Assembly: GCA_031274955.1 (NCBI GenBank)
Contig: JAISPQ010000135.1
Coordinates: 1-51,894 of the forward strand
DNA: 51,894 bases
Reading direction: 5' to 3'
DNA from: Rhodanobacter sp.
Lineage (GTDB): Bacteria; Pseudomonadota; Gammaproteobacteria; Xanthomonadales; Rhodanobacteraceae
Part shown: positions 6,396-27,193 of the stretch, in pieces
Layout: each line of letters opens with the position of its first letter
Position numbering within the stretch: position 1 is the stretch's first letter
The notes under the pieces: model-generated
What the model was told of the DNA's origin: nothing
Seen by the model: only the letters and a program-made list of their open reading frames with translations
Databases searched by the model: none
Position numbers and translations under genes: made by a program

Positions 6396-9300
6396 GCGGC
6401 CAACTCCGGTGAATCCGCGCCCAACACACGATCGACCGCCGCGATCAGACCATCGGAAAAACGATGCCGCCAGATGCCCGCGCCCGGCGCGAGACCGGCG
6501 GCGCGCAGGAACAGATAAAACACCTCGCCCAGATGCGCGCCTGTCTGATAGCCGCTGATGCGCTGGCGCAGATAACGATCGACGGCGACGCTGTAAAGCA
6601 ACGCCTGAAAACGATAGTGATGCGCATCCATCACCGCGCGCAGCGCCGCCGATTCGTAATCCGCCAGCGCATCGCCGAGGTGATTGCTCTTGTAGTCGAG
6701 CACATGGAAACGGTCCTCGTGCTCGACTACGAGGTCGATCTTGCCGGTCATGAAACCGCGCAGGGTGGGCATGGCGATGTTCGATGGCACCAGATCGGGC
6801 TCCCCATGCCGCGCGCAGGCATCGCGCAGCCGCGCGACGGATACCGCGTCCAGCACATAGTGAAAAGCCATCTCGGCACGTTGCCGCTGCGCCGGAAGCG
6901 CATCCAATCGCAACTTGGGCGCGAGTTCCGTGGCCAATGCCATATCCAGCCGTGCGGCGATCTTCGCGCACATCGCCGCGGGCGCGGCCTCGCCCAGCCG
7001 TACGCCGGCGGCGCGCAGCGCGCGTTCGATCAAGTCCGTCTGACGCTGCAGCGGCTCGCCGATCACACGTTCTTCCAACACCACATGCAGCGCGTTGCCG
7101 AACTCGGTGCCGCGCAAAACGCCGAGCGCGACGATCTCCGCATGCGGCACGTGCTCACCGGCATCCGCACCCTGGGCGTCTGGCCTCTCCACGGCGCCCG
7201 CCTCTTCATCATCGGCCGCCGCCTCCTCACGCGAGGCGCCGCGCGGCGTTCGCGTCAGGCTCGAAAAACTGTACAGACTCTCGACAGGCGCACGCGCAGG
7301 TTCTTCACGTATCTGCGGCGCGCCCTCGTCGCGCGTCGATGGCGCGTGGTAGTCGATGCACGGCCACGGCCATTCATCCTCGGACCAGACGGCGTGCTCG
7401 AACCACTGCGCGAGCGGAACGTCCTGCTTGCCGGCACGCCGCATGATGCGCTCGACCATCACATCCAGCGGCGCACGCTCAGGATCGCCCAACGGACCCT
7501 TCGCTCCCTTTTGGGCCAAACGATCCGGCATCAGCACATACACATGGCAGGCGTGGATCGCACGCGTGAGCGCCACATACAGGACGCGGAAACGTTCGTC
7601 CTGGCCTTCGTGCGCGTACTGCGTCTTTGCCGACGCACCGAAACCGAGCACGCGCCGATCGCATAGCGGTTCGTGGATCACCAGTTGCGTGTCCTGCGTG
7701 TTGGACCGGTGCGCCCACATCAACGGCAGGAACACCAGCGGAAACTCCAGCCCCTTGCTCGCATGCAGTGTCATCAGACGCACGCGCCGCGCGTCCGATT
7801 CGATGCGCAACTGCCGCTCGTCCGATTCGGCGGCATCCTCGGGCGCGTCCGTGCATTCCGCAGCGAGCCAGGCGAGCAGCCGTTCCGCGCCGTGCAGTTG
7901 TTCGCTGCGTTCCTGGACCAGTTCACCGAGGTGACGCAGATCGGTGAGCATGCGTTCGCGCTCGGCAAGGTCGGCCATCTGCCGTGCGGCGGCGTCGGCG
8001 AAGCCGAGCACGACCGCGAGCACGCCGTCGCGCTGCCACGTGCGCCGCGCCTGCTCGAAACGCCGCAGCTGCGGCAACCATGCTTCCGTATCGTCGCGCA
8101 TGGCGCGCAGCGCGGCGAAATCCATCCCGCCCAGGCGCGTGGCCAGCGCGGCGCACACCGCGCCCGCATCGTCCGCATGCTCGACCGCATACAGCACCAC
8201 ACGCAACTCGCGCGCCCATGGCGTGTGCAGGACACTGCTCCTGCCGGAACCCGCGCACGGTACCCGCCGCTCGCGCAACAAACGGCGCAACTGCGCGACA
8301 TCGCCATTGTTGGGCAACAGCACGGCGATATCGCCGGGTTCCAGCGGCTTGTCGCCGATGCGGTACTCGCCTTCTTGCAACCGTTGCGCGATCTGGTTGG
8401 CACAGGCAGTGAGCGCCAGCGTGCGGCGCTCGCCCGCCGCGGCAGGAATATCGCGGCGGATGTGCAGGGTCAGTGCGGGCGCGACTTGTCCATCCGCGCG
8501 GCGATACGGTTTGTCATCGACGCGGCCGCTCGCGTTCACGGCGTGATAGCGGATCGCCTGATCGTCGCCGCTGCCCAGCGCATCGCCCGCGCGCGCGTAC
8601 AGTTCGTTGAGCGCGGCGACATAGGCACGCGACGAACGCCGGTTGGTATCCAGTGCGAGGTGCGCATCGGCGGTGCGCGCGGCGGCGAGATAGGTATCGA
8701 TATCGCCGCCACGGAAGCGATAGATCGCCTGCTTGGGATCGCCGATCAGCACCAAAGCGCCGCGTGGCGTGCCACCGGCATCGCGATGGATGCGATTGAG
8801 TATGCCGTATTGCAGCGCGTCGGTATCCTGAAACTCATCGACCAGCGCAACCGGCCACTGCGCGGACAGGCGCTCGGCCAGAGCCTGCGCGCATGGCGCG
8901 GTCAAGGCCTCGTGCGCGCGCACGATCAATTCGTCGAACGTGAGTTCGCCGCGCGCGCTCAGGCGTTGCCCGCGCCATGCGCGCACGCGCTGCGTCCATG
9001 CCTGCCACGCGCGGATTTCGTCCGCGTGTTCGAGATAACCCAGTAGGCACAGCGCGTCGTCGATGATGAAGCGCGCCGCATCGCGCGCCGTATCATCGTC
9101 GTGCTGCGCGAGCAAGTCGGCGGCCTCGCGCAAAGCACGCGTGTCGATGGTCTGGCGGTCGCGCAGATAGGCCGCCAATGCGCGTAACGCAGCCGGCGCG
9201 CTGGTCTTGGTCTTCCAGATATGCTTGTCCGCGGCCAGCGCTTCGAGTTGTGCTGCGCGCGACGCCGGCAGACGACGCTCCACATCCGCCGCCTCGGGCA

Positions 9301-17982: not shown

Positions 17983-18084
17983 GGACAAGCTCCTCCTAAG
18001 GATTGATTGGATGATGGGTCGCGCATCCTACCTGCTTCGTCGAGTGCATGCACAGCACCCTACCCAGGAACCCGCCGGTCTGTA

Positions 18085-18221
18085 CTCCCGCAAGCGGGAG
18101 AGATGACGGCCTCCTTTCCCCTGCTCTTTCACGCAAAGGCGGGACTGCCAAGGCAGGGGTGCTTTTGCGGGGGTGGAGGCGCTTCTCCCCCTGCTCCCTC
18201 AGCCCTACTCCCTGCTTCTTT
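18085..18221. repeat. REP-like palindrome plus a copy of a dispersed repeat
   Basis: CTCCCGCAAGCGGGAG at 18085-18100; the reverse complement of ~18130-18221 matches ~51005-51097. Confidence 0.7.
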
Positions 18222-18440
18222 CGGCCACAGCGGTACGTTTGTTCAAGATATGGGGATTTGAGAGGCATGAATATCCAAGAACATGAATTGACTTCAATGC
18301 CGCCAAGTGTGATGATTCGCACATATTAAATATGGAGATCTATATGCGTTAAATATGATGTTTTGTAAATGTAATTGAATGTGAAAATTTTAACAGCCAT
18401 GCCAACATGGTAATTGATTACCCTCACTCCAGGAGGCTAT

Positions 18441-21400
18441 ATGACCGAGCGGTTTGGTATCCGGTACCTGCACCTATTTCATTTCGTGGCCGGGCTATTG
18501 TTGTGCGCCGTGCATTCTTCGTCATCGGCATTCCCCGCCAACATGTGTCCGGCCGATCGTTTTGGCTCGAATCCGAGTTGTAGCGCGGCAGATGTGCCTC
18601 TGGGCACACTGGCCGTCAACAACAACGTGACGAGCTGTGAGGCAGGGGAGATCGTTACGCTGGACTTGTCGTTGAAGCTTGAGCTCAATGCGAGCACACG
18701 CTACGACTTCGGTACCTTTATCGCCCTGGATGGCAAAGATTTGAAGCTTACTTCGGCCGCGGGAGGCAGTGCGCAGTGTGCGGCCATCCCTGCGCCGCTT
18801 GGACCGCCGCCGCTGATCGATCTTAACAATAATGACTGTGGCGATGCGCAGGCTACCGGTGTAGCCACTCTACCCCTGGGTCCCATCCAGGTGCTGTGCG
18901 CGCCGGCGGATGACGGCTCTTTGAAAATAAATGGCCTGGTTTCTTGGCACACAAATTCGGGATCGCAGGGGACTTGCCACGATGCAAGCGACCTTGCGCT
19001 GCAAAACGGCGGTTCCAAATGCAGCACGGGCACATTCAAGGATATCCCGGTGAGCGTACTGGGGTCGGTGACGATCAAGAAAGTCACCGACCCCAGTGGT
19101 GCGACGCAGTCTTTTTCCTACACCGTTACGCCGCCGGGCGGTGCGCCGCCGGTGGCTTCATTCAGTCTCACCGATGAAACCTCAAAGAATTTCACCACAC
19201 AGGCGCTTAAATCCGTACCAAGCACTTATACGGTTACGGAAACGCTCGATCCGAACTGGCCAGTGACTTCGATCGAATGCGTGGATACCGCCACGAGTAA
19301 GCCAATAACACCTCTTAGCGTGGACCGCGGGGCGGGTTCGGTTTCCTTGGACATGTCCCCGACATTGAGCGAGGTCACCTGCACCTACACCAACCAGCAG
19401 AGGAATTCGTTCAACGTGACCAAGCACGTCACCGGCGAGAAGAGCGGCTATGTCGACGGCAGCACGTTCCCGATCACGGTAGCCTGTACCGATACCAACG
19501 GCTCGTTAGTTTCGTCGGTTTCCGAAAGTGTGGCTGATGGTGGAACAATCACGGTCACCGACTTGGCGCCGGGGGTAACCTGTACGGCCAGCGAGGACCC
19601 GAACAATCTACCGGCGCCGAAAAACGGGTATCGCTATGGCCCGTCCGAATTGGTTACCGTGAACACTGGAACGGCGGTTGCGGTCGAAATACACAATCCG
19701 TTGAGCGCCGATCCAGGCAGCGTGAGGGTGACCAAGCAGGTGGTCGACCTCACGAGGGCGGGTTATATCCCCAGCAGTACCTTTGATATCACGATCACAT
19801 GCACGGATGACAGTGCCACTCCTGCGACTGCGCAGACTCTGACGCAGTCCATTGCCGATGGTGGTTCTTTTACGCTGAGCGGTGTGCCGGCCGGTGCGCA
19901 TTGTTCGGTCAGCGAGCCGCCGGATACGCCCGCTGCGCGTGCTGTTGGATACAGTTTCGAGCAGATCGTGCCGGCCCCGGTCGACATGCCAGCGGGTGGC
20001 TTGCTGGATTTCACGATCGTGAACCGGTTGGTTCCCCCTCCGGGAAGTCTGACGGTCACCAAACGCGTGACCGGCGCAGTGGCAGGCTATGTGGCCGGTA
20101 GCACTTTCCCGATCAATGTGGACTGTAGCGACGGCTCAGGAACCGCAGAGCAACTGGCCGATGGCCAGAGCACGACGATCAAAGATATTGCGGCAGGCGC
20201 GCTATGCCATATCACCGAGGGTACACCACCACCGGCCGCATCAGGATATGCCTACGACAAACCGATTCTTCCAGCGGATGTGACGATAGCGCCGGGCGGC
20301 GCACAGACCGTGACGGTAGAGAATCCGCTCATCGCCAATCCTCACAGTCTGACGGTGGTCAAGAAGGTTACCGGGGCGACGGCAGGCTATGAACCCGGCA
20401 GCGTGTTCGCGATCACGGTCGCCTGCGATAACGGCGGACCGACGCAGACCGGGGCGATCGTCGATGGCGGCAGCTTCACGGTGGACAACATTCCTTCCAG
20501 CGCAACCTGCACGGTGACCGAAGACAAAGGCACGCTACCTGCGCCCAAGCCGGGCTATACCTATGGCACGCCCGTGCTACCGCCGCCGGTGGGAAATCTG
20601 TTGCCGGGAGGCCTGTCGTGGGTCGAGGTGCAAAATCCATTGACGGCCAATCCCGGTAGCCTGACGATCACCAAGCATGTCACGGGGGCGACACCAGGCT
20701 ATAACCTCGGCAGCCTGTTTGCGATCACGGTCGCCTGCGATAACGGCGGCCCGACGGTGACGCAGTCGATTGCCGATGGCGGCAGCTTCACTGTCAGCGC
20801 CATTCCGGCAGGGTCCACGTGCACGACGACCGAAAGCGCGCCGCCCGCCCCGAAGACCGGCTACACCTACGGGAATGCTGTACTGCCCGCCGCCGTAACG
20901 ATGGCGCCGGGGGGTACGCCGAGCCAGATCGTGCTCAATCCGTTGCGCGCCAACCCCGGCAGCCTGATCGTGACCGAACAGGTCATTGGCCCGGGTTATC
21001 TTCCCGGATCGACTTTCCCGATCACGGTCAGTTGCAGTGACGGCACGGTGGAGACGTGGCCTTTCGTCGATGGCGAGAGTTTCGAGGTCAGGCCCATTAG
21101 AGCGGGCGCCACCTGTTATATCACTCAAGGCGAGTTACCGCCCACCAGCGATCTGTCTTACGAATATGACATACCGATACTGCCGGCGCCGGTGACGACC
21201 ATACCCAGTGAACAAGTCAGCGTCACGGTCAAGAATCCCCTTCGACAGTCGACCGCAGAACTGACCGCAGGCGTGATCGTGACCGGACACACAGCCGGCT
21301 ACGTGCCCGGCAGTACGTTCCCGATCACCGTGAATTGCGTGGATGCTTCCAATGTTCCGGTAACGGGATTCCCGCGCCTCATCAACCTGGTCGATGGGGC

Positions 21401-22322
21401 CGACCAGTCGTTCACCTCGATTCCGCTCGGCAGTACCTGTTCGGTCAGCCAAGGTACCGTACCTGCCACCACCATACCTGCGTATGTCTACGGCACGCCG
21501 CTGATTCCACCCTCGGTTACTGTGCAGACCAACACACCGGTCGTATTGCAGATACAGGATCCGATAACCCTGACGACAGGATCGTTGATAGTCAATGCAA
21601 CCGTCACCGGTGCCGTGGCAGGCTATGTTCCAGGCAGCACGTTCGCTGTTACCGTCACCTGCGACAATGGCGGTCCGACCGAGACACAATTCATCGCCGA
21701 CGGCACCTATTTCATGGTGGCGGGGATTCCGGTCGGGGCGACCTGCGTTATCAGCCAATCCACGCAGCCCGCATCGCAGCAGGGCTACGACTATGGCACG
21801 GTAGAGGTTTCCACTCCCATCCAGATCCTTGCCAATACAACCGTGTCGGCACAGGTGCAAAATCCATTGATCGCCAATGCGGGCAGTTTGACGGTGACCA
21901 AGCAGGTGACCGGCGTGCTCGCCGGCCTGCGTGCGAGTGACACGTTCCCGATCGATGTGCAGTGCAGCGACGGCACCCAGGCTGCGCAAACGCTGAGCAA
22001 TGGCGCAAGTTTCACGATCAATGCGATTGCCGCCGGCGCGGTCTGTACCGTCACCGAAAGCGCCCCGCCAAGAGCGGCGAACGACTATGGCTGGGGGGTG
22101 CCACTGATTCCGCACCTGGCCGCCATGCCGCCTGATGGTAAGCAGACGCTCACCGTGCAAAACCCGCTGGTGTTCTCGCCCTCAGGAATCGTGCCTGCTG
22201 TTGCTATTATTCCTGCGCCCCTACTGGGCCTATCGGTGCTGTTTGTACTGGCCGTTTTGCTCGCCTTGCTGGCTATGTACGGATTGTATCCAGGCATCAA
22301 ACCCAAACCCTACGTTCGATAA
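18441..22322 (+). CDS. Large secreted repeat protein (putative adhesin): signal peptide, Cys-rich head, SpaA/prealbumin-like domain, nine ~100-aa DUF5979-like repeats, C-terminal TM sorting-like tail
   Basis: AGGAGG RBS before the ATG at 18441; repeat consensus GSLTVTKxVTG...GSTFPITVxC...ADG...PxGxxCTVTE...GY...VxNPL; hydrophobic C-terminus with a basic tail. Confidence 0.88.
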   Translation: MTERFGIRYLHLFHFVAGLLLCAVHSSSSAFPANMCPADRFGSNPSCSAADVPLGTLAVNNNVTSCEAGEIVTLDLSLKLELNASTRYDFGTFIALDGKDLKLTSAAGGSAQCAAIPAPLGPPPLIDLNNNDCGDAQATGVATLPLGPIQVLCAPADDGSLKINGLVSWHTNSGSQGTCHDASDLALQNGGSKCSTGTFKDIPVSVLGSVTIKKVTDPSGATQSFSYTVTPPGGAPPVASFSLTDETSKNFTTQALKSVPSTYTVTETLDPNWPVTSIECVDTATSKPITPLSVDRGAGSVSLDMSPTLSEVTCTYTNQQRNSFNVTKHVTGEKSGYVDGSTFPITVACTDTNGSLVSSVSESVADGGTITVTDLAPGVTCTASEDPNNLPAPKNGYRYGPSELVTVNTGTAVAVEIHNPLSADPGSVRVTKQVVDLTRAGYIPSSTFDITITCTDDSATPATAQTLTQSIADGGSFTLSGVPAGAHCSVSEPPDTPAARAVGYSFEQIVPAPVDMPAGGLLDFTIVNRLVPPPGSLTVTKRVTGAVAGYVAGSTFPINVDCSDGSGTAEQLADGQSTTIKDIAAGALCHITEGTPPPAASGYAYDKPILPADVTIAPGGAQTVTVENPLIANPHSLTVVKKVTGATAGYEPGSVFAITVACDNGGPTQTGAIVDGGSFTVDNIPSSATCTVTEDKGTLPAPKPGYTYGTPVLPPPVGNLLPGGLSWVEVQNPLTANPGSLTITKHVTGATPGYNLGSLFAITVACDNGGPTVTQSIADGGSFTVSAIPAGSTCTTTESAPPAPKTGYTYGNAVLPAAVTMAPGGTPSQIVLNPLRANPGSLIVTEQVIGPGYLPGSTFPITVSCSDGTVETWPFVDGESFEVRPIRAGATCYITQGELPPTSDLSYEYDIPILPAPVTTIPSEQVSVTVKNPLRQSTAELTAGVIVTGHTAGYVPGSTFPITVNCVDASNVPVTGFPRLINLVDGADQSFTSIPLGSTCSVSQGTVPATTIPAYVYGTPLIPPSVTVQTNTPVVLQIQDPITLTTGSLIVNATVTGAVAGYVPGSTFAVTVTCDNGGPTETQFIADGTYFMVAGIPVGATCVISQSTQPASQQGYDYGTVEVSTPIQILANTTVSAQVQNPLIANAGSLTVTKQVTGVLAGLRASDTFPIDVQCSDGTQAAQTLSNGASFTINAIAAGAVCTVTESAPPRAANDYGWGVPLIPHLAAMPPDGKQTLTVQNPLVFSPSGIVPAVAIIPAPLLGLSVLFVLAVLLALLAMYGLYPGIKPKPYVR

Positions 22323-22381
22323 ATACGAACGGTTATGGTGGGCTATACGCCGCCCAGGATGATGAAAGCGTGGCTTCCCCC

Positions 22382-22432
22382 CTCTCCCGCCTGCGGGAGA
22401 GCGAGGGCCGGGGTGAAGCCACGTGCGGGTGA
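22382..22432. repeat. REP-like palindrome
   Basis: CTCTCCCGCCTGCGGGAGAG followed by GGGCCGGGGTGA, similar to the palindromes at 18085 and 48176-48296. Confidence 0.7.
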
Positions 22433-22485
22433 GGCAAAGCCTGTCCCTTCACGCTACGCGGGCAGCGCCTGCCGCTTCCCATGCA

Positions 22486-24147
22486 TCAATCGCGTGCGGG
22501 ATACAGCGCCGGCAAGGCCGATACCTCGGTGTGGGCGGCCGAGTGATCGTGCCAGGCAAATCCGGGTTTGAACGCGCGCTCCAGGCGCATCGCCAGACCT
22601 TCGCAGGCCGCGCCCGCATACCGCGCCCGCTGCGTATCGGCCAGCGTTTCGCGCTGCGTGGAATCGGCGAGCCGTTCGGCCAATTCGCCGAGGTTGCGCA
22701 CATCGCCGCGCTCGGCCTTCGCCCACGCAACCAGCGCACGCTCGGCGCCGGCGAGATCGCCCAGCGCGCAGGCACGCAGGAAAGCCGCGCGTTGCCCGGA
22801 GGTATCCACACGCGCGTTCGATGCTGCCGACACCGGCGGACGCCGCCGCCGCCAGTACAGCGCCAGCGTCGCCAGCCATAGCGCAAAGCCCAGCATCGTC
22901 AGCGCCTGCCAGACCCGCACAGACCCCGTCGGCATGAATGAGGGCGCCGACACATCCGATACCTCCGGCGCGGCGGCGGCCGTACCGACCGCGGGCAATA
23001 CGCGCACAGTACGCGGCGGCAATTCGGCGGTTTCGGCGCGATCGTGCACGGTATCCCACCAGCGCACGCGCAGACCGGGAATCGTCAGCGTGCCCGCGCG
23101 TTGCGGAACGAATGCGAACTTGCGGGCGCGCTCACCGTACAACCACAGGCCATCGTCACGTGTGTGTGCGTCGGCCTTGTCGGGATACATCTGCACACCG
23201 TCCGGTGCGGCGAGATTCAACTCGGGCAGTTGCTCGAAACCCAGACCTTGCGCTTGCAGACGGATCGCCCGCGTGACCGGATCGCCGACATGGACCTCGG
23301 CCGGCCACGTGCTTTCGTCCCTGAGCTGGAGCGAGGCGGCAGGCAGCCAGGGCCCTTCCGTCCATTGCGCGGGTTTGGCCTTCACATCGAGCTTCACTGG
23401 CTCCGAGCGTGCGCTGACATTGCGGCCACGGTTGAAAACACCGCTGGGATCGGTGACATCCGGCACATTGCCGAGATAGACGATCGCGGGAATCGTCAGG
23501 GCGCCGCTGCGTTCGGGCGTGAGCACATAATGGCGTTCGACGACGCGATAGCGGCGTTCGCCGACGGTCGTGACATACATCTTGTCCTGCCCCAGCCGCT
23601 GCACACCGATGCCGTCGGCTTGCGGCTCGGTCAGGCTGCCGTTGCCGCCGGGCAGGTCGAAAGCGAAATGCAGTTTTATCGTGTACTGTACCTGCTGCTG
23701 CACATAGGGCGTCAGCGGTTCGGCGGAAACTTCCAGAAACGCATCGCCACCCTGTTTCGCCGCGCCGGTTTCGGCGGCGAGTACGTTGAGCCGGATCGGT
23801 GCGGTCTTTTCGTTGCCGACCGTGATCGGCCCGACCGTGATGTTGCCTTCGTGTTTGGGTTCCAGGCCAACGGCCCACAGCGTTTTCGCGCTGTGCGCGC
23901 CGTTGCTGATAGTGTTCTGCTGGCTGAACTGCGTGCCGGTCAGTTCGAAATCCTGTGTGAGCGCGGTGAAATCCGGCTGCGCATCGCTGCTGCCGTCGAC
24001 TTCCACATTCAGTATGACGGTTTCCCCGAGTCGTATCGTGTCGCGATCGAACCACGCACGCACGCCGGCCGCGTGCACGGTCGCCGCCGATAGGACGAGC
24101 GCGAGCGCCATGAACATCGCCCATGCCATGCGCGATTTCGGCATCAT
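22486..24147 (-). CDS. batD: BatD-family protein
   Basis: Signal peptide, DRDTIRLGET, PYVQQQV, WLPAASL, VGDPVTR, YPD motifs and a late TM helix; last gene of the moxR-VWA cluster. Confidence 0.85.
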   Translation of the reverse strand: MMPKSRMAWAMFMALALVLSAATVHAAGVRAWFDRDTIRLGETVILNVEVDGSSDAQPDFTALTQDFELTGTQFSQQNTISNGAHSAKTLWAVGLEPKHEGNITVGPITVGNEKTAPIRLNVLAAETGAAKQGGDAFLEVSAEPLTPYVQQQVQYTIKLHFAFDLPGGNGSLTEPQADGIGVQRLGQDKMYVTTVGERRYRVVERHYVLTPERSGALTIPAIVYLGNVPDVTDPSGVFNRGRNVSARSEPVKLDVKAKPAQWTEGPWLPAASLQLRDESTWPAEVHVGDPVTRAIRLQAQGLGFEQLPELNLAAPDGVQMYPDKADAHTRDDGLWLYGERARKFAFVPQRAGTLTIPGLRVRWWDTVHDRAETAELPPRTVRVLPAVGTAAAAPEVSDVSAPSFMPTGSVRVWQALTMLGFALWLATLALYWRRRRPPVSAASNARVDTSGQRAAFLRACALGDLAGAERALVAWAKAERGDVRNLGELAERLADSTQRETLADTQRARYAGAACEGLAMRLERAFKPGFAWHDHSAAHTEVSALPALYPARD

Positions 24148-26189
24148 GATCCATTTCCTCCGCCATTCTGCCGGCGCTGGTATTCGAGCTGGAATTTCCG
24201 CCGCAGCAAACCGCCCGGATCGTCGGGCACGCGTTGCAGCATGTGCTCCAGCACCTGCTGTTTCTCGCGCGTGGCTTCTTCTTTCCGGACCACCGCCGAC
24301 TGCGCCTGTGCAGCTTTCTGCGCGGCAGCCTGCTGGCCGTCCGCGAGCGCCTTGTCGATCGATTGCGCGAGCGCCTTCTGCTGTTCCGCATCCGGTTTGG
24401 CCGTATTCGATGGTACGGCGCCGTTCTGTGCGGTCTCGTCCTTATCGGATGCGGATTGAGCGCTCTTGGGTTTTTCGCCTTTTTGCTTTTCGTCCGCCGA
24501 AGCGTTTTGTTTTGCGTTTTGTTCCCCATTCTCCGCGCCGGATGAATCCTGCGCGCCCTGCTGCTGTTCGTTCTGTTGCTGTCCGCTTTGCTGCTGTCCG
24601 CTTTGCTGCTGCCCGCCCTGCTGTTGCCCGTCTTGCTGCTGACCGCTTTGTTGCTGACCGCTTTGTTGCTGACCGTCCTGCTGTTGTCCGTCTTGCTGCT
24701 GCCCGTCCTGTTGCTGACCGCCCTGCTGCTGACCGTCCTTTTGTTGCCCGTCCTGCTTGTCCCCCTGCTGCGCAGCGTTCTTGTCGTTCTTCGCGGAGTT
24801 CTGTTGCTGTTGCTGCTTGAGGAAATCCTCGACCACTTTGCGATTGGCTTGCGCATCCTCCATGTCCGGCGCCTGTTTGAGCGCCTCATCATAGGCGGCG
24901 ATCGCTTCTTCGTAGCGCCCCTGTTTCGCCAGCGCATTGCCCTTGTTGTAGGCGCCATCCGCGCCGGGCATCTGTGCGTAATCACCCGCCGCCGCCGCAT
25001 AGTCGCCATTCTTGTAGGCGGCGCTGGCGCGCCATTCGGGCGAAGAGGCGACCGCCGCTGCGGACTGGGCATCGCCGGCGGCCAGCGCCTTGGCGGCCTG
25101 TTGATCGGGCCGCTGCCACAGATCGGCCAAGGTCGCCGCGCGCGCGGGATGCGCCGCCGGCGCCATCACGGCCAGCGCGACGAGCATCAGCCAGCCGCGG
25201 CGGAATCCGAACAGGGCCAGCGGAACCAGCACCAGCAGCAGCCACGGGCCGCGATCACGCCAGCGCCCGCTCTGCGCCTGCCCATCGGACCCCGTGTCGC
25301 TCGCCCTATCGCCTGCCACGCGCTCTGCGAGCAGCAGATCCAGATCACGGCTGTCCACGCTGCTCAAGCCCGCATAGCGGCCGCCGCCGGCTTCGGCAAC
25401 GGCTTGCAAGGCCGCCGCATCCACACGCGGGATCAGCATATTGCCGGCTTGATCCTTCAGAAAACCGCCGTGTTCGAGCGTCACCGGCGCACCGCTTGCA
25501 CTGCCCACACCGAGCACGGAAACCGTGAATCCACGCGCGCGTGCCTTGTTCGCCGCAGTCGCCGCGTCGGCGCTCACGCCGTCGGCAATCAACAGGATGT
25601 CGCCGCGATGCTGGCCGGACTGTTCGATGAGATTCGCTGCGGCCTCGATCGCCGCCGCCGTCGCGTTGCCGGCAATCGGCATCGTGCCCGGATCAAGCGC
25701 ATCCACGAGATTGCGCACGGTGGCCACATCGTCGGTCAGCGGCGCGACGACGAACGCGGCGCCGGCATAGCCGATCAGTGCGGTCTGCGCATCGCGGCTG
25801 CGCGCGAGGATATCGTCGATCTTGTAACGCGCGCGTGCGAGACGGCTGGGCTTTTCGTCCACCGCCAGCATGGTCGGCGCAAGCTCCAGCGCGATCACAC
25901 GCACGGCCTCGTTGCGATACAGCGGCATCGATTCACGCTCCCAGGCCGGCCCGGCCAGCGCGATGCAGGCCAGTGTCCACAACACTGCGGCCAGCACGCT
26001 GCCGCCGCGCGCGGGCGCGTCATCGACGCGCTCGATCAGATACGGCAGCAGATGCGCATCGACCACGGCGTGCCATGCACCGGCATCCGTGTGCCCCCGC
26101 CGCCAGAGCAGCCAGAACAGCGGCAGCGCCGCTATCAGCAGCAAGGCCAGCGGACGCAGAAAATGGAATTCCGTCAGGGCGTGCATCAT
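24144..26189 (-). CDS. VWA + TPR membrane protein with a Gln-rich tail (BatB/C-like)
   Basis: FHFLRP, LAGPAW, PSRLARA, PLTDD, YNKGNALAKQGRYEEAIAAY and VPDDPGGLLRRKF; start overlaps the upstream VWA stop. Confidence 0.9.
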   Translation of the reverse strand: MMHALTEFHFLRPLALLLIAALPLFWLLWRRGHTDAGAWHAVVDAHLLPYLIERVDDAPARGGSVLAAVLWTLACIALAGPAWERESMPLYRNEAVRVIALELAPTMLAVDEKPSRLARARYKIDDILARSRDAQTALIGYAGAAFVVAPLTDDVATVRNLVDALDPGTMPIAGNATAAAIEAAANLIEQSGQHRGDILLIADGVSADAATAANKARARGFTVSVLGVGSASGAPVTLEHGGFLKDQAGNMLIPRVDAAALQAVAEAGGGRYAGLSSVDSRDLDLLLAERVAGDRASDTGSDGQAQSGRWRDRGPWLLLVLVPLALFGFRRGWLMLVALAVMAPAAHPARAATLADLWQRPDQQAAKALAAGDAQSAAAVASSPEWRASAAYKNGDYAAAAGDYAQMPGADGAYNKGNALAKQGRYEEAIAAYDEALKQAPDMEDAQANRKVVEDFLKQQQQQNSAKNDKNAAQQGDKQDGQQKDGQQQGGQQQDGQQQDGQQQDGQQQSGQQQSGQQQDGQQQGGQQQSGQQQSGQQQNEQQQGAQDSSGAENGEQNAKQNASADEKQKGEKPKSAQSASDKDETAQNGAVPSNTAKPDAEQQKALAQSIDKALADGQQAAAQKAAQAQSAVVRKEEATREKQQVLEHMLQRVPDDPGGLLRRKFQLEYQRRQNGGGNGS
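24560..24772 (-). repeat. 15-nt coding tandem repeat, QQQ[D/S/G]G-type units
   Basis: About a dozen imperfect 15-nt units such as CAGCAGCAAAGCGGA and CAGCAACAGGACGGG. Confidence 0.85.
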
Positions 26190-27193
26190 GTGGGCACGCT
26201 CTGGCGCGCGCGCGCACGCGCCACCGGCAGCAGGAAAGCACAGGCGACCGCCACCAATGCACCGGCGAGCGGCCACCAGAACAGTTCGTCGACCGGACGC
26301 AGGTTTTGCGTGGTGTCGGCGATCGGTTCGAGCTGATCGAACGCGCGATAGGCCTCGGCCAGATCCGCGCTGTTGCGCGCGCGGAAATAACGGCCACCGG
26401 TTTTCTGTGCCATTTCGCTCAGCATTTTTTCGTCGAGATCGGCAGAAGGATTGACGACGCGCGACGTCCCCATCGGACCATTGATGCGCAGGGTGTCCGC
26501 ACCGATACCCAGCGTATAGATGCGCACGTGATTTTCTGCGGCCAGTTCAATCGCCTTGTTCGGATCGAGCTCGCCGGAGTTGTTTGCGCCGTCGGTCATC
26601 AGCACGAGCACGCGCTGCTGCTGCGGACGATCGCGCAGACGCTTCACCGCCAAGCCAACGGCGTCGCCGATGGCCGTCCTTTCGGCTCCGGCCAGACCGA
26701 TGCTCGCCTCTTGGAGTTGCTTATCGACGGTCTTCAGATCGAACGTGAGCGGAACCAGCAGATACGCATTCATGCCGAACATGAGTAGCCCGACGCGATC
26801 GCCGGTGCGGCGCCGGATGAAATCCGCACCAATCGCCTGGATCGCGGAAAAACGCGGTGCGGGCCGATTGCCCAGTTGCATGTCTTCGATGCCCATGCTG
26901 CCGGAAGTATCCACCGCGAGCAGCAGGTCGCGCCCCGAACGCGGCACGTCTTGCGCTTGCCCCACCCACTGCGGGCGCGCAGCGGCGCACACCAGCAAGG
27001 CCCAGGCCAGCAGCGCGAACCCACGGCGCAGCCACGGGACGGCGGAAACGTTCGCCTGCTCGGGCAACGCAACCCCCAAGTGCGGCAGATGCAGCGCGGC
27101 GCTCGCCAGGCCACGCGCGCGCGGCAACACCCACGCTGCGACGAACGGCAACGGCAGCGCGATCAGCAGCCACGGCCAAGCCACTTCAACCAC
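26186..27193 (-). CDS. VWA domain protein (BatA-like)
   Basis: MIDAS motif DTSGSM, GDRVGL, TAIGDAVG, LMTDGANNSG; GTG start. Confidence 0.9.
   Translation of the reverse strand: MVEVAWPWLLIALPLPFVAAWVLPRARGLASAALHLPHLGVALPEQANVSAVPWLRRGFALLAWALLVCAAARPQWVGQAQDVPRSGRDLLLAVDTSGSMGIEDMQLGNRPAPRFSAIQAIGADFIRRRTGDRVGLLMFGMNAYLLVPLTFDLKTVDKQLQEASIGLAGAERTAIGDAVGLAVKRLRDRPQQQRVLVLMTDGANNSGELDPNKAIELAAENHVRIYTLGIGADTLRINGPMGTSRVVNPSADLDEKMLSEMAQKTGGRYFRARNSADLAEAYRAFDQLEPIADTTQNLRPVDELFWWPLAGALVAVACAFLLPVARARARQSVPT

What the first reader, a model, noticed from the sequence alone, without database searches (positions are those of the whole stretch)
19062..22170. Co-varying Lys/Glu/Asn triad suggests self-crosslinking isopeptide domains in a Gram-negative surface protein
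Seen: nine repeats start near 19404, 19716, 20043, 20343, 20655, 20958, 21255, 21579 and 21882. Repeats 1-5 and 9 have Lys on the first strand (VTKH, VTKQ, VTKR, VVKK, ITKH, VTKQ), Glu after the second Cys (CTASE, CSVSE, CHITE, CTVTE, CTTTE, CTVTE) and Asn on the last strand (NPL/NRL). In repeats 6-8 the Lys is lost (VTEQ, AGVI, VNAT), and in exactly those three the Glu becomes Gln (CYITQ, CSVSQ, CVISQ); repeat 7 also has N to D. Every repeat keeps two Cys. The preceding domain (19062-19394) also shows TIKK...YTVTE...YTN. Established: first-strand Lys, last-strand Asn and a catalytic Glu form autocatalytic isopeptide bonds in CnaB domains of Gram-positive pilins and adhesins. Inference: a stalk with up to seven isopeptide- and disulfide-locked domains plus a block of three unlocked domains, perhaps an extensible spring near the anchor.
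Basis: partly seen in the sequence, partly recalled or inferred. Interest (0 to 1): 0.85.

Follow-up and report, generated by a model that had tools for sequence, protein, structure and literature searches.

The report
Self-locking adhesin stalk, three locks lost
This gene encodes a rod-shaped bacterial protein, likely a surface adhesin, whose repeated domains belong to a known family predicted to staple themselves shut with an internal covalent bond; three neighbouring repeats have lost the stapling lysine and swapped the catalytic glutamate for glutamine, a paired change that recurs across the family and likely keeps the unstapled core stable rather than making a spring.

Summary
ORF 18441-22322 has a signal peptide, an unannotated 8-Cys tip domain, one SpaA_4 domain, nine DUF5979 repeats and a C-terminal membrane tail. 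DUF5979 and SpaA_4 are published CnaB-like isopeptide families. The nearest solved structure (Mobiluncus 5U5O) has the Lys-Asn bond and a disulfide in the same register, and Gram-negative isopeptide-plus-disulfide stalks are already predicted in print (PMC12617251). So the headline is known. The covariation holds family-wide: Gln sits at the catalytic site in 0 of 1573 Lys-bearing domains and 10 of 88 Lys-less ones (7 proteins, several origins). The pilin FctB shows the same Asn/Gln state. Lys-less domains are skewed towards the anchor (17 proteins, mean position 0.78 against 0.50). The three-domain block is not conserved: 0 of 8 same-architecture homologues have it, and the closest colinear relative is fully locked. 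Best reading: lineage-specific loss with a compensating Glu-to-Gln change. Unlocked domains would be high-force fuses, not soft springs. In passing, a conserved Asn/Thr/His variant occupies every third repeat in giant relatives and occurs in a paralogue in this genome. No bond was shown experimentally or measured in a model.

The parts
18441..22322 (+). Gene for a 1293-aa putative fibrillar surface protein (the ORF opens at TTG 18414; ATG 18441 matches the 1293-aa database record P0002)
18441..18530 (+). Predicted Sec signal peptide (basic N-region, hydrophobic core, SSSA/F); read by eye
   Evidence: inference
18531..19061 (+). N-terminal tip domain with 8 conserved Cys, a predicted beta-sandwich; no Pfam family; also sits on other stalks; likely the adhesive end, ligand unknown
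19062..19403 (+). D0: SpaA_4 (PF24514) CnaB-like domain, K223/E276/N327, Cys289 and Cys323; predicted locked
   Evidence: (Z 11.8, rmsd 2.5 over 105 residues to Spy0128 3B2M)
19404..20957 (+). R1-R5: DUF5979 repeats with full K/E/N triad and two Cys; predicted isopeptide- and disulfide-locked
20958..21881 (+). R6-R8: DUF5979 repeats without the Lys (E, V, A) and with Gln at the catalytic site (all CAA codons); R7 also has Asp for Asn; two Cys kept; predicted folded but not isopeptide-locked
21882..22175 (+). R9: DUF5979 repeat with full triad K1163/E1215/N1250
22209..22319 (+). C-terminal tail: IPAP motif, hydrophobic helix, basic end; resembles IPTL-CTERM by eye but does not score against PF18203

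Best explanation
The protein is likely a fibrillar adhesin whose stalk is ten CnaB-like domains; seven are predicted to form a Lys-Asn isopeptide bond catalysed by the buried Glu plus a disulfide, and three adjacent repeats (R6-R8) have lost the lysine and carry Gln in place of Glu, likely as a compensating change that removes a buried acid and leaves a neutral hydrogen-bond network. Shown: sequence, family assignment, register with a solved cross-linked homologue, family-wide coupling, repeated origin, locked state in the closest colinear relative. Predicted: R5-R9 all fold as CnaB sandwiches. Inferred: Sec export, periplasmic disulfide formation, spontaneous bond formation on folding, and surface display through the C-terminal tail (perhaps via T2SS). 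Also inferred: selection for the bond is relaxed near the anchor, so loss is tolerated there, and once Lys goes, Glu-to-Gln (one base change from GAA) is favoured. Mechanically, the unlocked domains would be the only ones able to unfold, about 23-25 nm each with the disulfide intact, but only at high force.
For: Pfam DUF5979 E 1e-91 with 9 stretches, plus SpaA_4. The profile aligns our Lys with K175 and our second Cys with C228 of 5U5O (E 3.5e-7). By my count (offset 6667) these are Lys6842 and Cys6895, shown as isopeptide- and disulfide-linked by MS and X-ray in PMC10619420. AF2 model of R5-R9: mean pLDDT 94.3 with no low stretch; best structural matches are PitA (Z 12.0) and 5U5O/5U6F (Z 11.9), then Cpa and Spy0128. 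Triad-neutralised profile over 198 proteins: 1885 hits, 1661 kept. With Lys (1573): Glu at Cys2+4 in 1519, Glu one residue later in 50, Gln in 0. Without Lys (88): Gln in 10, 8 of them in 6 other proteins. Among conserved columns the E-site shifts most when Lys is lost (0.97 to 0.26), while core F, P, Y, W do not drop. One clade for all x/Gln domains is rejected (p-AU 0.0055). P0098 is 42% identical and colinear with R7-R9, and is K/E/N in all three. FctB, a natural unlocked CnaB domain, has Asn13/Gln67 at these sites, a hydrogen-bond network and Tm 71 C against 81 C once locked (PMC5311914).
Against: Glu-to-Gln is not obligatory: 9 of 88 Lys-less domains keep Glu at +4 and 2 have it at +5. 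Three adjacent losses at a background of about 2% per domain are unlikely as pure drift, and a single origin of R6-R8 is not rejected in the 9-row tree (p-AU 0.107), only in the 30-row tree (0.025). Tension is equal along a chain in series, so relaxed selection near the anchor must concern protease or heat exposure, not force; this is untested. Kin are not independent, so the Fisher p of 1e-13 overstates.
Confidence: 0.62

Rival explanations
1. Selected mechanical fuse: the unlocked block is kept on purpose as a sacrificial, refoldable segment near the anchor that dissipates shear shocks (about 70 nm in all), giving a CnaB-only stalk what CnaA domains give pili.
For: Unlocked domains are skewed to the C-terminus: 17 other proteins, mean relative position 0.775 against 0.50, 0 of 10,000 permutations; last domain unlocked in 9 of 17 against 4.3 expected. 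In proteins with IPTL-like tails the last domain is unlocked in 5 of 32, against 2 of 234 domains before the last three. Three adjacent, possibly independent losses here. A triad-swapped N/T/H domain recurs every third repeat in giant relatives. Shock-absorber precedent for CnaA domains, as cited in PMC12617251.
Against: 166 of 194 proteins have no scored Lys-less domain. Of 8 same-architecture homologues, 5 are fully locked and 3 have only the last repeat unlocked. R9, next to the anchor, is locked here. A fuse in series needs no particular position. Unlocked Spy0128 unfolds at about 300 pN, above titin I91 at about 200 pN, so it is not a soft spring.
Confidence: 0.22
2. Envelope or export constraint: the anchor-proximal repeats stay unlocked because that part must stay pliable during export or tail processing, or sits in a shielded zone.
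For: The last-domain skew is marked in IPTL-like tails (5 of 32) but not in LPxTG tails (1 of 89); two T2SS secretins are in the genome.
Against: 26 of 32 scored last domains in IPTL-like proteins are locked, as is R9 here; the tail classes came from a rough pattern match; the export route is not shown.
Confidence: 0.08
3. The x/Gln/Asn domains use another chemistry, such as a Gln-based cross-link to a Lys or Thr elsewhere.
For: Gln is conserved at one site in independent lineages.
Against: R7 and R8 contain no Lys at all; there is no conserved partner residue at the K-site (E, V, A, N, T, Q, L); the ester-domain HxDxxDxxQ motif (PMC10619420) is not apparent in the repeat alignment; FctB with the same Gln has only hydrogen bonds.
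Confidence: 0.04
4. The triad is vestigial and no repeat forms an isopeptide bond; the stalk relies on disulfides only.
For: 563 of 2528 DUF5979 domains in AFDB are not predicted to carry a bond (PMC12617251 supplement); no direct test here.
Against: Near-invariant K/E coupling (1569 of 1573 Lys-bearing domains have Glu at +4 or +5); the homologue in the same register is cross-linked.
Confidence: 0.04

Closest known systems
DUF5979 (PF19407), CnaB-like isopeptide domain family, clan CL0287 (PMC12617251 Table 1; 1965 of 2528 AFDB domains predicted locked, 39.8% of those with a disulfide)
   Same: All nine repeats score above the curated cut-off; K/E/N triad on first strand, Cys2+4 and last strand; tandem stalk in a long exported protein.
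   Different: A contiguous block of three Lys-less, Gln-bearing repeats; the passages, sections and supplement tables I saw do not describe K-loss/E-to-Q coupling or its position.
Mobiluncus mulieris giant adhesin domain 47I (PDB 5U5O/5U6F; PMC10619420)
   Same: Same fold; isopeptide Lys and second Cys in the same register; both an isopeptide bond and a disulfide, shown experimentally.
   Different: Actinobacterial, LPxTG-anchored, with a thioester tip and ester domains; ours is from a diderm, has an unannotated 8-Cys tip and a different tail.
SpaA_4 (PF24514)
   Same: D0 matches at E 1.6e-15 with K/E/N and two Cys (99.5% of predicted-locked SpaA_4 domains carry a disulfide).
   Different: None found.
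FctB minor pilin of Streptococcus pyogenes (PMC5311914)
   Same: Natural CnaB domain without the bond, with Gln at the catalytic site and a non-Lys first-strand residue; stable through hydrogen bonds.
   Different: A separate pilus subunit with Pro at the Asn site and no equivalent Cys pair noted; ours are repeats within one chain that mostly keep Asn.
CLIPPER/DUF11 of Acinetobacter silvestris (PMC12617251)
   Same: Gram-negative fibrillar adhesin stalk with isopeptide and disulfide bonds; some family members lack the bond.
   Different: CnaA-like fold with a catalytic Asp, not CnaB with Glu.

Membership tests
DUF5979 (PF19407) | HMM score above the curated cut-off | tested here: met
   302.9 bits, 9 stretches; R6, R7, R8 alone 33.2, 31.2, 41.9 bits against a cut-off of 25
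CnaB-type isopeptide domain | CnaB beta-sandwich with first and last strands paired | tested here: met
   AF2 pLDDT 94 and 91; matches to 5U5O, PitA, Cpa, Spy0128 and Cna B; a predicted model, not a structure
CnaB-type isopeptide domain | Lys on first strand, Glu catalyst, Asn/Asp on last strand (D0, R1-R5, R9) | tested here: met
   Lys, Glu and Cys in register with 5U5O
CnaB-type isopeptide domain | Same triad in R6-R8 | tested here: not met
   E/Q/N, V/Q/D, A/Q/N: same fold family, not isopeptide domains
CnaB-type isopeptide domain | Triad side chains adjacent in a hydrophobic core | not testable with these tools
   Model coordinates are not returned; inferred from register only
CnaB-type isopeptide domain | Covalent Lys-Asn bond (loss of 17 Da) | not testable with these tools
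   Needs mass spectrometry or a crystal structure
SpaA_4 (PF24514) | HMM score above cut-off, with triad | tested here: met
   58.3 bits against 27.3; K223/E276/N327
IPTL-CTERM sorting tail (PF18203) | HMM match to the C-terminal motif-helix-basic tail | tested here: not met
   No match at E up to 10. Similar layout by eye, and homologues end in IPTL/IPAL/VPVP tails. The family's definition is recalled, not read.
Fibrillar adhesin | Signal peptide, tip domain, repeat stalk, C-terminal anchor | tested here: met
   signal peptide and anchor read by eye
Fibrillar adhesin | Tip domain with a known adhesive fold or shown binding | tested here: inconclusive
   No Pfam match; Atlas first hit is an unnamed cluster; best tip-only structural rows Z 6.8 or lower
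Ester-bond (TQ) domain | First-strand Thr, last-strand Gln, HxDxxDxxQ motif | tested here: not met
   The Gln lies on the catalytic strand and the last strand has Asn/Asp

The most novel reading that the evidence does not exclude
Bacteria pattern covalent locks along adhesin stalks as a mechanical design: the isopeptide triad switches as a unit between a locked state (K/E/N) and two defined unlocked states, x/Gln/Asn near the anchor (this protein) and Asn/Thr/His at every third repeat (giant relatives and the paralogue on G000:C242). These would act as placed fuses, and the Asn/Thr/His site could be an undescribed cross-link or metal site in the same pocket.
Probability: 0.2. Interest if true: 0.72.

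Novelty: new member of a known kind. Interest (0 to 1): 0.36.

Why it matters
The main claim, isopeptide plus disulfide locks in a Gram-negative stalk, is already predicted for this family, so it adds a member rather than a principle. The useful new part is a natural experiment: locked and unlocked copies of one domain within one chain, with a family-wide rule (Gln appears at the catalytic site only when Lys is gone). This gives ready paired constructs to measure what the bond adds to stability and mechanics, and informs SpyTag-type engineering. If the placing of unlocked domains proved selected, it would show mechanical patterning in single-chain adhesins.

Tried and rejected
NCBIfam found nothing for the protein. 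No close orthologue: best full-length homologues are about 35% identical; the tip-plus-D0 scan of genome contigs gave one unrelated D0-type hit; the R6-R9 scan of metagenome contigs found none among 107 candidate stretches; 2 of 55 same-genus genomes match stalk or D0 domains, none the tip. So selection on R6-R8 (dN/dS, polymorphism) could not be tested. A search for longer proteins with the tip alone returned only the query. The tip fold has no clear solved match; this is no evidence of a new fold. Public runs: one DNA holder, possibly the source, and no RNA holder listed; laying contigs gave only short diverged pieces and was uninformative. The promoter/terminator scan was at chance level. 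No exosortase (PF09721) was found in this 80.8%-complete genome, and there are five rhomboids, so the tail-processing enzyme is unresolved. A first count was misled by gaps sliding over the masked column; it was redone by fixing the site at Cys2+4. Rows dropped before the count: 105 low score, 65 with a gapped first strand (including R7 itself and P0011's last domain), 54 without both Cys. Frameshift or miscall as a cause was rejected: the changes are in-frame, multi-base and correlated. Literature searches found one paper naming DUF5979 and, by listing, none on K-loss/E-to-Q coupling or an Asn/Thr/His variant; the library lacks most subscription journals. Earlier scan findings: none for this sequence or genome.
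Full report
OBSERVATION. The finding lies in a 1302-codon ORF (18414-22322, +; likely start ATG 18441, matching the 1293-aa record P0002). D0 and R1-R5 and R9 have K/E/N; R6 has E/Q/N, R7 V/Q/D, R8 A/Q/N; each has two Cys. The repeats are 27-64% identical. Coincidence of the two changes inside this protein has probability 1/84.

WHAT IT IS. Pfam gives DUF5979 for all nine repeats and SpaA_4 for D0. Costa et al. 2025 (PMC12617251; I saw the abstract, sections 2.2 and 3, passages and two supplement tables) list both as CnaB-like isopeptide families. They predict the bond in 1965 of 2528 DUF5979 domains, report isopeptide domains in Pseudomonadota (58.2% of them with disulfides), and solve a Gram-negative CnaA example. 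The only strong PDB sequence hit is domain 47I of the Mobiluncus adhesin (E 3.5e-7). Its K175 and C228 align with our Lys and second Cys. By my count they are Lys6842 and Cys6895, shown cross-linked in PMC10619420 (passages and section 3.4 seen). My count puts the first Cys at 6867, where the paper prints 6887. AlphaFold folds R5-R9 at mean pLDDT 94.3 with one strand pattern in locked and unlocked repeats (36-row alignment), and matches CnaB pilins and adhesins. D0 matches Spy0128 at Z 11.8, rmsd 2.5. Side-chain geometry could not be measured.

REST OF THE PROTEIN AND CONTEXT. Residues 40-215 form an 8-Cys beta-sandwich (pLDDT about 90) with no Pfam family. It was found in 12 other protein clusters already fetched, on DUF5979 and other stalks, and has no clear solved match. 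The tail has a Pro motif, a hydrophobic helix and a basic end, like the IPTL-type tails of homologues, but does not score against PF18203. The host is a diderm (PilQ, two GspD). It is likely Dokdonella-like: a same-genus genome encodes a protein identical to one named from that genus; placing it in Rhodanobacteraceae is recalled. The one run holding the DNA is labelled termite gut metagenome and may be the source. The gene sits alone between gap and a BatD/vWA/MoxR-like cluster. That slot spans 4.6-13 kb in five same-genus genomes and holds other genes in the four I read. GC3 is 0.69 against 0.76-0.82 for six neighbours. DUF5979 occurs in 7 of 300 other genomes of the family. So it is an accessory, probably acquired gene.

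IS THE COVARIATION GENERAL? I pooled 198 proteins (plus the paralogue), searched them with a profile whose triad columns were masked, and re-aligned doubtful hits end to end. Of 1885 hits, 1661 in 194 proteins were kept; 105 were dropped for low score, 65 for a gapped first strand, 54 for lacking both Cys. Of 1573 with Lys, 1519 have Glu at Cys2+4, 50 have it one residue later, and none has Gln. Of 88 without Lys, 10 have Gln, 9 Glu, 2 Glu one later, 39 Thr, and the rest vary. Two of the ten Gln cases are R6 and R8; eight come from six other proteins with both IPTL-like and LPxTG-like tails. After clustering at 50% identity (874 rows) the table is 749/51/9/65. A tree with the triad masked rejects one clade for all x/Gln domains (p-AU 0.0055). 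It rejects one clade for R6-R8 only in the 30-row tree (0.025), not in the 9-row tree (0.107); trees on about 100 columns are weak. P0098 is colinear with R7-R9 at 42% identity and fully K/E/N, so the loss is derived here. FctB, a natural unlocked CnaB domain, has Asn13/Gln67/Pro117 and a hydrogen-bond network, Tm 71 C against 81 C when locked (PMC5311914, passages). This fits Gln as the stable filler of an unlocked core.

IS THE BLOCK A SPRING? Against: 166 of 194 proteins have no scored Lys-less domain. Of 8 homologues with the same tip, SpaA_4 and DUF5979 stalk, 5 are fully locked and 3 have only the last repeat unlocked (P0011 Q/E by eye, P0017 E/E, P0024 Q/Q); none has a block. R9 is locked. 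Unlocked Spy0128 E258A unfolds at about 300 pN against about 200 pN for titin I91 (bioRxiv 10.1101/310227, passages), so such a domain is a fuse, not a soft spring. For: outside the N-type subtype, unlocked domains lie towards the C-terminus in 17 other proteins (0.775 against 0.50; 0 of 10,000 permutations; gapped domains counted as locked). The effect is strongest for the last domain of proteins with IPTL-like tails (5 of 32, against 2 of 234 before the last three; LPxTG tails 1 of 89; rough tail classes). Edge repeats in arrays may simply diverge faster (general knowledge). If unfolded, each unlocked repeat would give about 23-25 nm with its disulfide intact (assumes 0.38 nm per residue).

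A SECOND UNLOCKED STATE. Fifty-seven domains in 15 proteins were picked for Asn or His at the Lys site. Unselected columns then show His at the Asn site in 55 of 57 and Thr at the Glu site in 46 of 57, with both Cys kept. In giant proteins of 3000-5900 aa they fall in a K-K-N rhythm; one is named from a Burkholderiales bacterium. The paralogue on G000:C242 carries two. This shows the three sites change as a unit and that regularly spaced unlocked domains are maintained, although cassette duplication alone could produce the rhythm. It is not in the window and was not tested further.

MECHANISM AND VERDICT. Most likely (0.62): a Sec-exported, disulfide-bonded stalk whose seven triad-bearing domains self-ligate on folding. 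Lysines were lost in three anchor-proximal repeats in this lineage under relaxed selection, followed or accompanied by Glu-to-Gln. A selected fuse has 0.22. The headline is known; the coupling rule, the positional skew and the Asn/Thr/His state were not found in my searches, which miss most subscription journals. New member of a known kind, interest 0.36.

Noticed in passing
G000:C242:1-3498 (L017); also P0075, P0076, P0078, P0079, P0080, P0084, P0086, P0089, P0095: DUF5979 variant with the whole triad swapped to Asn/Thr/His (His in 55 of 57, Thr in 46 of 57), at every third repeat in giant surface proteins; two copies in a paralogue in this genome, which also has Big_1 domains and an IPTPTL tail. 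Possibly a hydrogen-bond network, a metal site or a new cross-link.
   Followed up: partly
window 18531-19061: Unannotated 8-Cys tip domain with invariant Arg96 and Gly100 (ORF numbering), fused to several kinds of isopeptide stalk; Atlas cluster of 124 unnamed members at score 0.95.
   Followed up: partly
P0082, P0087, P0099, P0172, P0203 and others: 50 Lys-bearing DUF5979 domains have the Glu one residue later (Cys2+5), suggesting a one-residue bulge that keeps the catalyst.
   Followed up: no
P0137; P0160: Stalks with nearly all repeats unlocked and no fixed residue at the Glu site (P0137: 7 of 8).
   Followed up: no
G000:C4:3561-3650(-), C212:24049-24129(+), C86:1891-1965(+), C231:23596-23661(+): Further long ORFs ending in IPTL-CTERM-like tails (one above the Pfam cut-off); no exosortase found in the genome, five rhomboids.
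   Followed up: no
window 17988-22486; L029-L032: The interval between gap and the BatD-like gene is a variable slot (4.6-13 kb) holding different accessory genes in same-genus genomes.
   Followed up: partly
window about 24500-24750 (ORF 24144-26276, -): vWA/TPR BatB-like protein with a long Gln-rich (QQQDG/QQQSG) low-complexity repeat.
   Followed up: no
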